A DNA stretch of 64,000 nt from an uncultured Gammaproteobacteria bacterium (GTDB lineage: Bacteria > Patescibacteriota > Microgenomatia > Levybacterales > GWA1-39-11). Positions within the stretch are counted from its first letter, which is position 1, and every line of letters starts with the position of its first letter. Positions 52,027 to 54,571 of the stretch are shown one piece after another. A program made the position numbers and the translations under genes. Below the pieces are notes generated by a model. That model ran no database searches, was not told the origin of the DNA, and was given only the letters and a program-made list of their open reading frames with translations. The stretch covers positions 1,056 to 65,055 of the forward strand of contig CAZYWG010000011.1 in assembly GCA_964651815.1 (NCBI GenBank), given 5' to 3'.

Positions 52027-53070
52027 CTAAACCTGCCTTATTCTTTCTGCAATCTTATGAGTATTCCCATGTGTCAGAAGCCCTAGATATGAAGCCATCG
52101 ATTCTTGGGTGTAATTCAGTATTAATTTGCTGAACATCCTTCTTTTGGTTGATGTACGGATTATTCTATGATGAGGAAAATGTACCCAACCTAGAAAATC
52201 AACACCGGAGGAAAGTGTTTTGATGTATAACTTGTCAGGGTGAAGGGAAAGCTTAAGCATGCTTTCTAAAAATTCTGAAATCTTTGGGATTTGGGCTTCT
52301 AGATACTGTTTGTTTTCGCTTAAAATAACAAAATCATCAGCATAGCGGATGTAATATTTAATCTTGAGTTTGTGTTTTATAAATTGATCAAATTCGTTCA
52401 TGTAGATATTTATAAATAGTTGGCTCGTTAGATTGCCAAGAGGAAGACCAACTTTAGAATCATTGCTTGTAGAAAAACTATCAATATCTTCACTTAAAAG
52501 CCATATGATAGCTTCATCATCAATATATTTCCCTACTACCTTCTTAAGTATTGAATGGTCAATATTGGCAAAAAATTTCCTAATATCACCCTTAAGTATC
52601 CACGCCGTTCTTGTATCGTTGCAGGATATCTTTCTTCCATATTCTCTAAAACGATTTATTGCTTTGTGCATACCTTTATCTTTTCGACACGAGTAGGAAT
52701 AGGAAGTAAAAATTCGGTCAAAATATGGGTATAGGATTCGATAGATTGCGTGATGTAAAAGTCGATCACATACGGTTGCCTTATGGATATCTCTCGGTTT
52801 GGGATCACTTATTTTAAATGCGGAGTATGTCCCATGTTTATATGTTTTATCAACAAGTTTTTGGTGAAGCGCGAGAATATTATCTGTTAAATGCAAAGAG
52901 AATTCGGCAACATCACGCCTTTTCCTTTTACCTTGTAAGAATTCACGCCACGCAGTAAGTAAATTCTCAAAAGAAATGATACTATTGTAATTATGGTGAA
53001 GCCGTCTCTCTCTCTCTCTCTCTCTCTCTCTCTCTCTCTCTGAGCGCGCTTCGATCCTCAGCCGTGTCAA
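52027..53070 (-). CDS. Diversity-generating retroelement (DGR) reverse transcriptase.
   Basis: ...SFENLLTAWREFLQGKRKRRDVAEFSLHLTDNILALHQKLVDKTYKHGTYSAFKISDPKPRDIHKATVCDRLLHHAIYRIL... is the characteristic DGR-RT N-terminal pattern. RT motifs include YIRYADDFVIL (YADD). About 347 aa. Cognate TR/VR pair 350-900 bp away on the same strand. Confidence 0.85.
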   Translation of the reverse strand: MTRLRIEARSERERERERERERRLHHNYNSIISFENLLTAWREFLQGKRKRRDVAEFSLHLTDNILALHQKLVDKTYKHGTYSAFKISDPKPRDIHKATVCDRLLHHAIYRILYPYFDRIFTSYSYSCRKDKGMHKAINRFREYGRKISCNDTRTAWILKGDIRKFFANIDHSILKKVVGKYIDDEAIIWLLSEDIDSFSTSNDSKVGLPLGNLTSQLFINIYMNEFDQFIKHKLKIKYYIRYADDFVILSENKQYLEAQIPKISEFLESMLKLSLHPDKLYIKTLSSGVDFLGWVHFPHHRIIRTSTKRRMFSKLILNYTQESMASYLGLLTHGNTHKIAERIRQV

Positions 53071-53428
53071 AGAAGGATATCTGATTTGGATTAATATTGC
53101 TCCTCATATTCCCCGCGGGGCGCGCTATACAATAGGTTCAAGAATAGAGAATAAGTTTCTTGACCTACTCGAACGCACATATATTGCATATTTTACAGAA
53201 AAAGATAAAAAGAGCGACAAATTGTCAGAATGTATTCTCACACTGGATACTCTTAAATTTCTCGTATCCGTTGCTTGGGAGGGAAAGCTCATTTCCAATA
53301 AACATTGTGAAGATGTTTCGGTTAAACTCGGTGAAGTAGGTAAAATGTTTGGAGGTTGGAAGAAAAATTTGGACACAATTAAGTAAGAAAAACCGCAAGC
53401 TTTGCAAAGCATGCGGTAAAGAAAGCAG

Positions 53429-53559
53429 TTTCGGACACCGAAAGCAAACTGATTGTCAGGATTCCACTTGTTGTCAGGATTCGCCCAATTGTCATTGAGC
53501 CACACCTCATCATCATTGCGTTCCACATTGAACACGTTCGGATTGCCATCGGAATCAGT
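53429..53559 (-). repeat. DGR template repeat (TR), about 131 bp, lying between the RT and the target gene.
   Basis: Aligns base-for-base (offset 451) with 53880-54010. All 17 mismatches are at TR positions that are A on the minus (coding) strand. TR encodes Asn AAC codons (VERNDDEVWLNDNWANPDNKWNPDNQFAFGVRN). Confidence 0.85.
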
Positions 53560-53875
53560 AAGTGTAACGCACCGTCTATGTCACTGTCCTTTGAATTCTC
53601 TTAGGACTGTATTTTATTCGGGATAGAAAATCCTCAAGTGCGAAACACCAAGTCCTATTCTTTTTTGACAAATATACAAACCCTCTGCAAGAAACCTTAA
53701 TCGCTTGCGTTCTCAATTAGTATATGTCGGAAAGGTTTTGAAAAGCCGTAGCCGTTCAATAAAGCCAGTCTATAAGAAGTATATAAAAAAATTTCGCGGC
53801 CGAAAAGAATCAAAGTATCAAAAAGGCAAAGAGTCAAAAGAATAAAAAAGAATTTAAGAGTTTAAGAATTAAAAA

Positions 53876-54571
53876 TTACTTGCGGACACCGAAAGCAAAC
53901 TGATCGTCAGGATTCCACTTGAAGTCAGGATACGCCCAATTGTCATTGAGCCACACCTCATCACCATCGCGCGCCACACCGAACACGCCCGGACCGCCAA
54001 CGGAATCAGCTATTGGTTTCATTCCTGCAATAATCCATTCACCTTTTTGCAATTTATCCCCATTTTCAATGAGATGGTGGATAAGTGCTTCGGCAGGTAA
54101 AAGTTCAAGACCTAATTCATTTATTTTACCTTTAGTGAAGGGTGCAGAATTGCCCTGCTCATCAACGTCGTCTTTTGTCCCAATGATATCAGCGGTTGTA
54201 GGATAGTCCTTTTTAATTCCTAAGTCGCCAGCCTTTAACAAGCCGACTTCAATAGTTGTGGGTTCTGGCAAAGTTGTAAATTCGGAGCTTTCGACCATGC
54301 TTCTGGCATAAGAGCCAATTTTGCGACCTCGTATGGCAAGACCACCCAAGAGTGTTTTTCCATCTTTTCCACCCATTGTCCAAGGCTCGATACGGATTTT
54401 ACCTTCAAGTGAAGGGTGTAATCTTGATGGTTCCGGTGCAAATCTTTCGGGAAGAAGTCCTTGTGACTGAAGATCGCGGGCTAAACTTTCCATTTGAGCA
54501 ATTCCAGGAGCAAATTGTTCCTGTTGTGCTTTTGAAGCTCCACGAGGTGCTTCAATGTAATTCATTGCCAT
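53876..54571 (-). CDS. DGR target protein. Variable region (VR) in the last ~44 codons.
   Basis: C-terminus ...ARDGDEVWLNDNWAYPDFKWNPDDQFAFGVRK is the VR counterpart of the TR. Higher GC than the genome background. Confidence 0.8.
   Translation of the reverse strand: MAMNYIEAPRGASKAQQEQFAPGIAQMESLARDLQSQGLLPERFAPEPSRLHPSLEGKIRIEPWTMGGKDGKTLLGGLAIRGRKIGSYARSMVESSEFTTLPEPTTIEVGLLKAGDLGIKKDYPTTADIIGTKDDVDEQGNSAPFTKGKINELGLELLPAEALIHHLIENGDKLQKGEWIIAGMKPIADSVGGPGVFGVARDGDEVWLNDNWAYPDFKWNPDDQFAFGVRK
53880..54010 (-). repeat. DGR variable repeat (VR), coordinates approximate to within 1-2 nt.
   Basis: 131-bp match to the TR with 17 A-to-N substitutions. Confidence 0.85.

What the first reader, a model, noticed from the sequence alone, without database searches (positions are those of the whole stretch)
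52027..54571. Complete diversity-generating retroelement (RT, TR, VR) with 17/17 adenine-specific mismatches
The 131-bp segment 53429-53559 (TR) and the 3' end of the minus-strand gene 53876-54571 (VR, about 53880-54010) align without gaps at a constant offset of 451 bp. They differ at exactly 17 positions. Every one is a T on the plus strand in the TR, that is, an A on the coding strand. This is the defining footprint of DGR mutagenic retrohoming. The TR reading frame is rich in AAC (Asn) codons (NDDEVWLNDNWANPDNKWNPDNQFAFGVRN), as in known DGRs. The RT just downstream of the TR has the DGR-RT-specific N-terminal pattern and a YADD active site. Architecture: target(VR) - 320-bp ORF-free spacer - TR - about 360 bp - RT. 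No avd-like small helical protein is evident between VR and RT. The target C-terminus (...VWLNDNWAYPDFKWNPDDQFAFGVRK) does not obviously match the common C-type-lectin-fold ending, so the VR scaffold may be unusual.
Basis: seen in the sequence. Interest (0 to 1): 0.85.

Follow-up and report, generated by a model that had tools for sequence, protein, structure and literature searches.

The report
Diversity-generating retroelement with a slippery repeat
This is a genuine, complete diversity-generating retroelement of the kind common in ultra-small CPR bacteria.

Summary
TR 53429-53559 and VR 53880-54010 align without gaps at offset 451. They differ at 17 positions, and every one is a TR adenine on the coding strand (P about 2e-11).

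The element is a real DGR of the known CPR "B3" layout, target(VR)-TR-(avd, reverse strand)-RT:
- The RT's best solved relative is Bordetella phage bRT.
- The 231-aa target has no Pfam match, but its confident model resembles only C-type-lectin/FGE folds, including TvpA and Mtd. The scaffold is divergent, not exotic.
- Of 161 related RT loci, 148 show the same inverted avd. At least 74 show adenine-specific TR/VR pairs.

One feature I could not find described. The 5' ends of avd and RT overlap across a simple repeat, (GA)18 here. In 142 of 149 loci (the 148 relatives plus this window) the repeat is (GA)n, Gn or (GT)n of very variable length.
- All 7 loci without a repeat have avd in frame with an upstream start codon. 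Only a third of repeat-bearing loci do.
- The avd bodies are nevertheless always intact.

This points to slippage-gated (phase-variable) expression. In this window avd is out of frame. The DGR itself is ordinary; the repeat deserves follow-up.

The parts
53876..54571 (-). Target (variable-protein) gene, 231 aa. There is no signal peptide or membrane helix by eye. The predicted fold is a divergent C-type lectin.
53880..54010 (-). VR, the variable repeat: the last 131 nt of the target gene, ending 1 nt before the stop codon.
   Evidence: The columns that vary across the protein family (alignment A1) coincide with the TR codons that carry A at position 1 or 2.
54581..54609 (-). Promoter-like site of the target gene (TTGACA-17-TAAAAT, 11 of 12), 10 nt upstream of the ATG.
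   Evidence: This is a consensus match only.
53560..53875 (-). Non-coding spacer between VR and TR. It is pyrimidine-rich just after the target stop codon and presumably holds the TR promoter.
   Evidence: No convincing ORF. Relatives have a VR-to-TR distance of 264-433 nt, so this spacing is typical.
53429..53559 (-). TR, the invariant template repeat. It has 37 adenines and is rich in Asn codons.
53387..53428 (-). Segment just downstream of the TR. It starts with the motif CUGCUUUCUUUACCGC, which continues from the CCGAAA at the TR's 3' end and is conserved as CCGAAAC-U-N-UUUCUUU(U)CCGC in relatives. A hairpin at 53417-53392 and a U5 run at 53391-53387 follow, which looks like a terminator.
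   Evidence: Fold with z = -2.8. Motif seen in the relatives listed.
53054..53386 (+). avd body (110 codons plus stop) on the strand opposite to RT, TR and VR. There is no ATG, GTG or TTG in frame before 53222.
52993..53053 (+). Presumed avd leader. ATG 52993 - GTG AAG CCG - (TC)18 reads MVKP(SL)6 and then stops at TGA 53041. It is out of frame with the avd body by 1 nt, and would be in frame with 19 or 16 repeat units.
   Evidence: The start position is inferred from repeat-free relatives, which are in frame in 7 of 7 cases.
53005..53040 (.). Perfect dinucleotide repeat: (GA)18 on the RT-sense strand and (TC)18 on the avd-sense strand. It is the only such tract in the 64-kb window.
   Evidence: A homologous tract is present in 142 of 149 loci.
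52027..53070 (-). Reverse transcriptase ORF, 347 aa from TTG 53070. The conserved core starts at about 53004 (RLHHNYNSIISFENLL). It carries the DGR-type LGNLTSQ motif and YADD. The N-terminal 22 codons run antisense through the avd 5' end and the repeat, reading (ER)6.
   Evidence: Pfam RVT_1 75 bits. Best PDB match is bRT 8ub7, E 2.6e-45, against 7e-21 or weaker for retron-type and group II intron RTs.

Best explanation
The locus is a complete chromosomal diversity-generating retroelement of the CPR (Patescibacteria) clade with the layout target(VR) - spacer - TR - (avd on the opposite strand) - RT.

By homology with the Bordetella phage BPP-1 system, I infer the following mechanism; none of it is shown here. 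A transcript containing the TR and its flanks is bound by an RT-Avd complex. It is reverse-transcribed with random misincorporation opposite template adenines. The cDNA then replaces the last 131 nt of the target gene. This rewrites about 15 codons on the ligand-binding face of a small C-type-lectin-fold protein while leaving the scaffold codons untouched.

What is shown directly is the footprint of that process (17 of 17 differences at TR adenines), the three protein components and the family-wide conservation of the layout.

A second layer is inferred with lower confidence, about 0.5. The avd and RT reading frames overlap head-to-head across a hypermutable simple repeat. Whether each protein can be made then depends on slippage at that repeat: during DNA replication (classical phase variation), or possibly by RNA polymerase or the ribosome. 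With 18 units in this window, the RT frame is open from TTG 53070 and avd is out of frame with its ATG. The consensus genotype would therefore be in an 'avd-off' state.
For: Adenine-only TR/VR differences with P = 1.7e-11, and a single VR in the window.

RT: RVT_1. The best solved relative is the DGR enzyme bRT 8ub7 at 158 bits, against 78 bits or less for retron-type and group II intron RTs. LGNLTSQ and YADD are read from the sequence.

Avd: PF22296 above its cut-off and NCBIfam DivGenRetAVD.

Family context: 148 of 161 related RT loci have avd inverted directly upstream of RT. 108 of 122 have a TR/VR repeat and 74 have a strict A-only signature, with VR-TR spacing and TR length like those here. 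The B3 layout is described for 90% of CPR DGRs (PMC5758913).

Repeat layer:
- A tract is present in 142 of 149 loci, against 6 comparable tracts in 1.23 Mb of flanking DNA.
- Three different repeat units occupy the same site.
- Tract length differs in 10 of 12 locus pairs that are 90-97% identical, and is G9 against G11 in a pair with 1 mismatch in 600 nt.
- Repeat-free loci have avd in frame from an upstream start in 7 of 7 cases, against 43 of 132 with a repeat (Fisher P = 6e-4).
- All 64 loci with no in-frame start still have intact avd bodies of 107-129 codons.
- The A-only diversification signature occurs in all three frame classes.
Against: There are no reads, so current VR heterogeneity and repeat-length heterogeneity within the population are unknown.

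In the assembled sequence avd has no in-frame canonical start. The DGR could be switched off or decaying.

In this window the frames required by RT (via TTG 53070) and by avd (via ATG 52993) are mutually exclusive at the DNA level: n = 0 against 1 mod 3. DNA slippage alone therefore cannot switch both on. Some other initiation or slippage step must exist, and I cannot identify it.

Contigs from different samples that carry identical RT proteins had identical tracts: (GA)5 in 6 contigs, G10 in 3 and (GA)6 in 2. Hypermutability is therefore not demonstrated for short tracts.

Confidence: 0.92

Rival explanations
1. A formerly active DGR that is now silent or decaying. Its footprint is intact, but avd has lost its start or frame through expansion of a neutral microsatellite, so no diversification occurs today.
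For: The avd body has no ATG, GTG or TTG in frame. The upstream ATG 52993 runs into TGA 53041. RT lacks a canonical start downstream of the repeat. An IS1595 transposase lies next to the target. A relative (L002) keeps a target homologue beside only a 56-residue RT remnant.
Against: There are zero non-adenine differences in 131 nt of TR/VR. The RT (347 codons) and avd (110 codons) frames are fully open. The same 'startless' state occurs in 64 relatives whose avd bodies are all intact and whose VRs carry A-only changes in every frame class. Neutral decay would not produce that pattern.
Confidence: 0.12
2. The repeat is a sequence-specific nucleic-acid element and not a slippage switch. Candidates are a purine-rich ribosome-binding or leader element for RT, a homopurine-homopyrimidine triplex (H-DNA) between divergent promoters, or a promoter spacer. 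On this view its length variation is incidental.
For: The G-containing strand is always the RT-sense strand. In (GA)n loci that have an RT ATG, the tract ends 0-15 nt upstream of it. TAnnAT-like hexamers often follow the tract.
Against: Four loci carry (GT)n at the same place. That unit is neither homopurine nor Shine-Dalgarno-like. In Gn loci the tract lies 15-60 nt from the RT start but a constant 4-12 nt from the avd 5' end. Tract length ranges from 6 to 43 nt, too wide for a -35/-10 spacer. Repeat-free loci read straight through this position as avd coding sequence in 7 of 7 cases.
Confidence: 0.25
3. The TR/VR similarity is an ordinary duplication of a gene 3' end next to an unrelated reverse transcriptase (group II intron, retron or defence RT).
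For: NCBIfam gives sub-threshold hits to group II intron, Drt and retron RT models.
Against: All those hits are far below their cut-offs (146 bits against 300, and so on). The best structural-sequence relative is bRT. The mismatches are exclusively at adenines (P about 2e-11). An Avd gene is present. The arrangement recurs in more than 100 relatives.
Confidence: 0.01

Closest known systems
CPR/Patescibacteria DGRs with architecture B3, TR-(avd)-RT (Wu et al. 2018, PMC5758913; Paul et al. 2017, not readable here; 'DGR clade 2' of Roux et al. 2021, PMC8144416)
   Same: The gene order and orientations are the same, and avd is inverted directly upstream of RT. The RT is 60-78% identical to hundreds of CPR RTs. 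The TR is about 130 nt and lies 15-40 nt from the avd stop codon. The VR is at the extreme 3' end of a small unannotated target about 300-400 nt upstream.
   Different: Nothing essential. This window has a longer than usual (GA)n tract (36 nt; only one relative has more) and an extra hairpin between the TR and avd. The conserved repeat at the avd/RT junction is a property of the whole clade, and I could not find it described.
Bordetella phage BPP-1 DGR (mtd-avd-TR-brt), the mechanistic prototype
   Same: It has an RT homologous to bRT (E 2.6e-45), an Avd-family protein, adenine-specific TR-to-VR transfer, a C-terminal VR and a C-type-lectin-type target fold.
   Different: In BPP-1 all genes are on one strand, and the 3' end of avd together with a 140-nt spacer forms the functional DGR RNA. 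Here avd is antisense and lies between TR and RT, so the RNA elements flanking the TR must differ. The target is a small, apparently cytoplasmic or unanchored protein, not a phage tail fibre. The host is a CPR bacterium.
Treponema denticola TvpA and other C-type-lectin/FGE-fold DGR variable proteins
   Different: No sequence-level match (Pfam, NCBIfam and a PDB profile search were all negative). It is much smaller (231 aa) and its VR pattern is distinct (WLxxxWAxPxxxWxPxxxFxFxLRK).
Simple-sequence-repeat contingency loci of Neisseria, Haemophilus, Campylobacter and Helicobacter (phase variation by slipped-strand mispairing)
   Same: A homopolymer or dinucleotide tract lies just inside the 5' end of an ORF. 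The repeat unit differs between homologous loci, tract length differs between close relatives, and only about one third of loci are in frame.
   Different: The gated gene is a component of a mutagenic retroelement, not a surface antigen or a restriction-modification gene. The tract is shared by two head-to-head overlapping ORFs. The hosts are CPR bacteria. Reversible switching has not been observed.

Membership tests
Diversity-generating retroelement (DGR) | A TR/VR repeat pair whose differences are confined to adenines of the TR | tested here: met
   17 of 17 differences at TR adenines, none at the other 94 positions, P = 1.7e-11.
Diversity-generating retroelement (DGR) | A DGR-clade reverse transcriptase next to the TR, with an intact YxDD active site and the [LIV]GxxxSQ motif. 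That this motif is DGR-specific is from my own knowledge. | tested here: met
   RVT_1 75 bits. Best PDB hit is bRT 8ub7, 158 bits over residues 6-298. YADD and LGNLTSQ are read in the translation. No phylogeny was built.
Diversity-generating retroelement (DGR) | An accessory protein (Avd in most DGRs) | tested here: met
   PF22296 bAvd 58.3 bits (cut-off 40). NCBIfam DivGenRetAVD 65 bits, below its cut-off of 80, covering profile positions 3-104 of 104. The start codon is problematic.
Diversity-generating retroelement (DGR) | The VR lies in the coding region of a target gene, with changes biased to codon positions 1 and 2 | tested here: met
   The VR is the last 131 nt of ORF 53876-54571. The changes split 8, 7 and 2 across codon positions 1, 2 and 3.
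Diversity-generating retroelement (DGR) | Ongoing mutagenic retrohoming (VR heterogeneity within the population, cDNA synthesis) | not testable with these tools
   No reads of the source sample are available. Exact-protein look-ups found no second copy of this locus.
Diversity-generating retroelement (DGR) | IMH/IMH* boundary elements and a flanking hairpin at the 3' end of the VR (defined in BPP-1) | tested here: inconclusive
   A 22-nt A-poor identical stretch (53432-53453) ends the repeat, and homology stops at the target stop codon. A 6-bp hairpin exists at the TR 3' end (53443-53429), but the A-to-C change weakens it in the VR. No functional definition exists for CPR DGRs.
CPR DGR architecture B3, TR-(avd)-RT (Wu et al. 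2018) | avd on the reverse strand between TR and RT, with the target upstream on the RT strand | tested here: met
   Coordinates. The same layout occurs in 148 of 161 related loci. The definition is in PMC5758913.
C-type-lectin-fold DGR variable protein | A CLec/FGE-sulfatase-type fold carrying the VR on its C-terminal strands | tested here: inconclusive
SSR-mediated phase-variable (contingency) gene | A hypermutable repeat tract inside the 5' coding region (or promoter) of the gene | tested here: met
   (TC)18 lies between ATG 52993 and the avd body. Repeat-free relatives read through this position in frame in 7 of 7 cases. The tract is present in 142 of 149 loci.
SSR-mediated phase-variable (contingency) gene | Tract length differs between closely related strains and changes the reading frame | tested here: inconclusive
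   10 of 12 locus pairs at 90-97% identity differ in tract length. One pair with 1 mismatch in 600 nt has G9 against G11. 43 of 132 repeat-bearing loci are in frame. However, 11 contigs with identical RT proteins from different samples had identical tracts, all short.
SSR-mediated phase-variable (contingency) gene | Reversible high-frequency ON/OFF switching within a population | not testable with these tools
   This needs reads, amplicons or cultures.

The most novel reading that the evidence does not exclude
In the large CPR clade of DGRs, the accessory gene avd, and in many loci the RT as well, is expressed only after slippage at a conserved hypermutable repeat ((GA)n, Gn or (GT)n). The repeat sits in the head-to-head overlap of the two genes. 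Targeted hypermutation would then itself be under a stochastic on/off (contingency) switch: a mutator gated by a mutable tract. This window would be a locus caught in the 'RT frame open, avd frame closed' state.
Probability: 0.45. Interest if true: 0.75.

Novelty: new member of a known kind. Interest (0 to 1): 0.5.

Why it matters
The DGR itself adds one more member to a clade that is already catalogued in the thousands. It mainly shows that the first-stage reader can spot DGR footprints by eye.

Two points go further.

First, the target family has a 231-aa core, no annotation, and includes a DGR-less copy in Curtissbacteria (L001) and a copy beside only an RT remnant (L002). It is a compact, confidently modelled lectin-like scaffold that CPR bacteria diversify. 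It is a good candidate for structural and binding studies of what these episymbionts recognise.

Second, how DGR activity is regulated is largely open. A conserved slippery repeat shared by avd and RT in about 95% of 149 loci, with intact avd bodies even when out of frame, offers a concrete hypothesis. It can be checked with existing metagenomic reads and simple reporter constructs. It would also matter for attempts to port CPR DGRs into E. coli as mutagenesis tools, because constructs copied from the assembled sequence would often lack an expressible avd.

Tried and rejected
1. My first avd query was translated one base out of frame (53053 instead of 53054). therefore under-counted avd (71 loci) and gave wrong avd-frame statistics. 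I found this and redid the work. Only the corrected numbers are used.

2. I first read the conserved CAT just RT-side of the repeat as conserved solely because it is avd's ATG on the other strand. It is always in the RT frame and aligns with a conserved His (MKIQFxH..., MRPRH...), so RT coding explains its conservation. It still serves as the avd start in repeat-free loci.

3. The repeat as a Shine-Dalgarno-like leader for RT: rejected as a general explanation. Gn tracts lie 15-60 nt from the RT start, and (GT)n variants exist.

4. The repeat as a homopurine triplex: weakened by the (GT)n loci.

5. The repeat as a -35/-10 spacer: the length range of 6-43 nt is too wide.

6. Frame enrichment: I expected avd or RT to be preferentially in frame. 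The three frame classes are about equal, 22/15/21 in (GA)n loci, whether or not RT has its own start.

7. Exact-protein look-ups of the window's target, RT and P0001 found no other contig.

8. Looking for tract polymorphism among contigs with identical RT proteins gave only identical tracts, all short. The P0072 look-up was biased, because its protein was called through the repeat.

9. Foldseek against PDB and BFVD gave no significant hit. A profile search of PDB with the family alignment gave nothing. afdb50 was not available.

10. Rfam found nothing in the locus.

11. Paul et al. 2017 (Nat Microbiol) is not held in the library. I cannot exclude that the repeat is mentioned there. Four full-text searches found no paper linking DGRs with simple repeats or phase variation of avd or RT.

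12. The source organism was not established from marker genes. CPR/Microgenomates is inferred from the relatives of RT, avd and the target.
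Full report
OBSERVATION

I read 51800-54800 on the minus strand and re-aligned the two segments. Window 53429-53559 (TR) and 53880-54010 (VR) align without gaps at an offset of 451. They differ at exactly 17 positions, and each one is an A on the coding (minus) strand of the TR copy. 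The first non-adenine mismatches lie immediately outside the segment, at 53428 and 53560.

The repeat finder reports the same pair independently. The TR has 37 A in 131 nt. The probability that 17 mismatch positions all fall on A is 1.7e-11. Eight changes hit codon position 1, seven hit position 2 and two hit position 3 of the target frame. No other site in the 64-kb window matches the TR.

COMPONENTS

The RT ORF is 52027-53070 on the minus strand.
- It matches Pfam RVT_1.
- Its best relative among solved structures is the Bordetella phage DGR enzyme bRT (8ub7, E 2.6e-45, near full length). That is well ahead of retron-type and group II intron RTs.
- The translation shows YADD and the LGNLTSQ motif. 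I know this motif as typical of DGR RTs; that is my own knowledge and was not tested against a curated model.

Translating the plus strand shows one. Residues from 53054 to the stop at 53384-53386 match Pfam bAvd at 58 bits (cut-off 40) and NCBIfam DivGenRetAVD over profile positions 3-104 of 104. The 'about 360 bp' between TR and RT is therefore the avd gene in reverse orientation.

The target, 53876-54571 on the minus strand (231 aa), has no Pfam or NCBIfam match.
- It has only 27 detectable homologues. All are unannotated, and the named ones come from Curtissbacteria or Microgenomates.
- Their alignment is well conserved except in the last 40 or so residues. There the variable columns are those encoded by A-containing TR codons.
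- An AlphaFold model built on this alignment is confident (pLDDT 90.6).
- Foldseek found nothing in PDB or BFVD.

A strong promoter-like site precedes the target gene. An IS1595 transposase gene lies just upstream of it.

RELATIVES

I scanned genomes and metagenomes with the RT core and obtained 160 loci at 59-76% identity, essentially all from CPR/Patescibacteria.

A first analysis used an avd query translated one base out of frame. I found the error and repeated the analysis. The corrected results are as follows.
- 148 of the 161 related loci that carry a full RT match have avd on the strand opposite to RT and directly upstream of it. With the window itself that makes 149 loci, the set used below. 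Ten of the twelve exceptions simply lack upstream sequence.
- This is architecture B3, TR-(avd)-RT, which Wu et al. report for 90% of CPR DGRs (PMC5758913).
- In 108 of 122 testable loci, the 260 nt upstream of the avd stop codon contains a repeat of a second site in the locus.
- In 74 of these the differences are adenine-specific by a strict criterion.
- TR length (about 130-140 nt), VR-TR spacing (264-433 nt) and TR-avd distance (median 15 nt) bracket the values in this window.
- Weak homologues of the window's target lie next to many of these RTs.

The window therefore holds a typical member of a known, very large DGR clade.

THE REPEAT

The N-terminal part of the RT ORF contains a perfect (GA)18 tract, 53005-53040. 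It is the only such tract in 64 kb. The same position in the relatives is also occupied by a simple repeat. Among the 149 loci with avd (the 148 relatives plus the window), the counts are:

| Tract on the RT-sense strand | Loci | Length |
|---|---|---|
| (GA)n | 65 | 8-43 nt |
| Gn | 73 | 6-18 nt |
| (GT)n | 4 | about 18-26 nt |
| none | 7 | - |

The 1.23 Mb of flanking sequence in the same loci contains only six comparable tracts.

The tract keeps a fixed distance from the avd 5' end: 12 nt from the conserved Ile codon in (GA)n loci. Its distance to the RT start varies from 0 to 60 nt.

Length evolves faster than the flanks.
- Ten of twelve locus pairs that are 90-97% identical differ in tract length.
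- One pair with a single mismatch in 600 nt has G9 against G11.
- Two loci combine (GA)n with Gn, which suggests that the types interconvert.

WHAT THE REPEAT IS PART OF

The avd body in the window and in the other (GA)n loci has no ATG, GTG or TTG on the body side of the tract.

In the seven loci without a tract, the avd frame continues upstream in frame to a start codon. That codon is mostly the ATG lying opposite a conserved His codon near the RT N-terminus. This holds in 7 of 7 cases. In tract-bearing loci it holds in 43 of 132, which is the one third expected by chance (Fisher P = 6e-4).

The tract therefore lies inside the 5' coding region of avd. When in frame it encodes (Ser-Leu)n, Pro(n) or (His-Thr)n.

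All 64 loci that have no in-frame start of any kind still have intact avd bodies of 107-129 codons. Adenine-specific VR changes occur in all three frame classes. These are not decaying pseudogenes, so the frame must be restorable.

RT is affected too. In 44 of 58 non-redundant (GA)n loci there is no canonical RT start downstream of the tract. The only candidate is a conserved TTG 16 nt inside the antisense of avd, and it is in frame in one third of loci.

In the window:
- RT is open from that TTG (53070) through (GA)18.
- ATG 52993 reads MVKP(SL)6 and then stops at TGA 53041.
- avd would be in frame with 19 or 16 units.

The two frames are mutually exclusive at the DNA level. I cannot explain this.

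MECHANISM

For the DGR proper I rely on homology with BPP-1. An RT-Avd complex copies the TR RNA with misincorporation at adenines, and the cDNA replaces the VR. Only the footprint and the parts are shown here.

The RNA elements must differ from BPP-1, because avd is antisense. I noted two features downstream of the TR:
- a motif conserved in many relatives, CCGAAAC-U-N-UUUCUUU(U)CCGC;
- in this window, a stable hairpin followed by U5.

For the repeat, the best-supported reading is a slippage gate. The standard bioinformatic hallmarks of phase-variable genes are present: a tract at the 5' end of the ORF, different repeat units at one site, length differences between close relatives, and random frame. 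The precedent is slipped-strand mispairing in contingency loci.

Slippage by RNA polymerase or by the ribosome would also restore the frame. A shift of 2 nt on a dinucleotide repeat, or of 1 nt on a homopolymer, preserves codon-anticodon pairing. Either would resolve the mutual exclusivity, but I have no evidence for either.

Sequence-specific roles fit the (GT)n loci and the positional data less well. These roles include a leader for RT, a triplex, or a promoter spacer.

Contigs from several samples with identical RT proteins had identical, short tracts. High-frequency switching is therefore not shown.

LITERATURE AND NOVELTY

The B3 layout and the abundance of DGRs in CPR bacteria are known (PMC5758913, PMC8144416). 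Four full-text searches found no paper that connects DGRs with simple repeats or with phase variation of avd or RT. Paul et al. 2017 could not be read.

I rate the DGR a new member of a known kind. The repeat is a clade-wide feature that appears to be undescribed. I give it about 45% probability of being a real slippage-dependent expression gate.

VERDICT

- 'No avd' is wrong.
- 'Unusual scaffold' is not supported.
- The element is ordinary for its clade, but it carries a feature that deserves a read-level test.

Noticed in passing
window 53005-53040; same position in L003-L162 (for example L018, L098, L103, L159): A simple repeat sits in the head-to-head overlap of avd and RT in 142 of 149 loci (148 related loci plus this window): (GA)n in 65, Gn in 73 and (GT)n in 4. 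The G-containing strand is always RT-sense. Length ranges from 6 to 43 nt. L031 and L098 carry (GA)n directly followed by G8-G11.
   Followed up: yes
window 52993-53070: In this window the frame that opens RT (TTG 53070, n = 0 mod 3) and the frame that opens avd (ATG 52993, n = 1 mod 3) are mutually exclusive. No repeat length gives both proteins a canonical in-frame start. Where relatives have ATG CGG CCG CGT CAT for RT, the window has AGA CGG CTT CAC CAT, with the last repeat unit in place of the ATG.
   Followed up: partly
window 53387-53445 (-); relatives listed: Directly 3' of the TR is a motif conserved in many relatives, CCGAAAC-T-N-TTTCTTT(T)CCGC, which lies in avd's 3' untranslated side on the other strand. 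The window also has a 10-bp hairpin plus U5 (53417-53387) that looks like a terminator for the TR transcript and possibly for avd. Covariation was not tested.
   Followed up: partly
window 54616-55569 (-): An IS1595-family transposase gene (DDE_Tnp_IS1595, 131 bits; NCBIfam 194 bits) lies immediately upstream of the target gene and its promoter-like site.
   Followed up: no
L002 2171-3181; L001 6001-6636: Target homologues occur without a working DGR. In L002 the gene is followed by only a 56-residue remnant of the RT C-terminus and then rpoB. In L001 (Curtissbacteria, 112-kb contig) no RT lies within 6 kb. These are orphan or remote targets, or decayed elements.
   Followed up: partly
protein P0005 (1.5-kb Logan contig): This target homologue ends in an Asn-rich, TR-like sequence and continues into ...RKCFLYRSFYRLRFF..., which resembles the window's TR read-through ORF (53125-53535). 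It is probably an assembly that joined VR and TR. Short-read assemblies of DGR loci can be chimeric in this way.
   Followed up: no
window 55715-56956 (+) and 57249-58346 (+): Two neighbouring genes encode paralogous-looking proteins. Both have the same N-terminal pattern (KPKLK followed by a membrane helix) and the same C-terminal ending (SSFKFTK and STFKFTK). One has a weak TIG/IPT hit. They may be cell-surface proteins.
   Followed up: no
A wrong-frame translation of avd, full of stop codons, still hit 71 loci at 30-58% 'identity'. The avd region is therefore unusually conserved at the nucleotide level. That would fit a second role for this sequence as RNA on the RT/TR strand.
   Followed up: no
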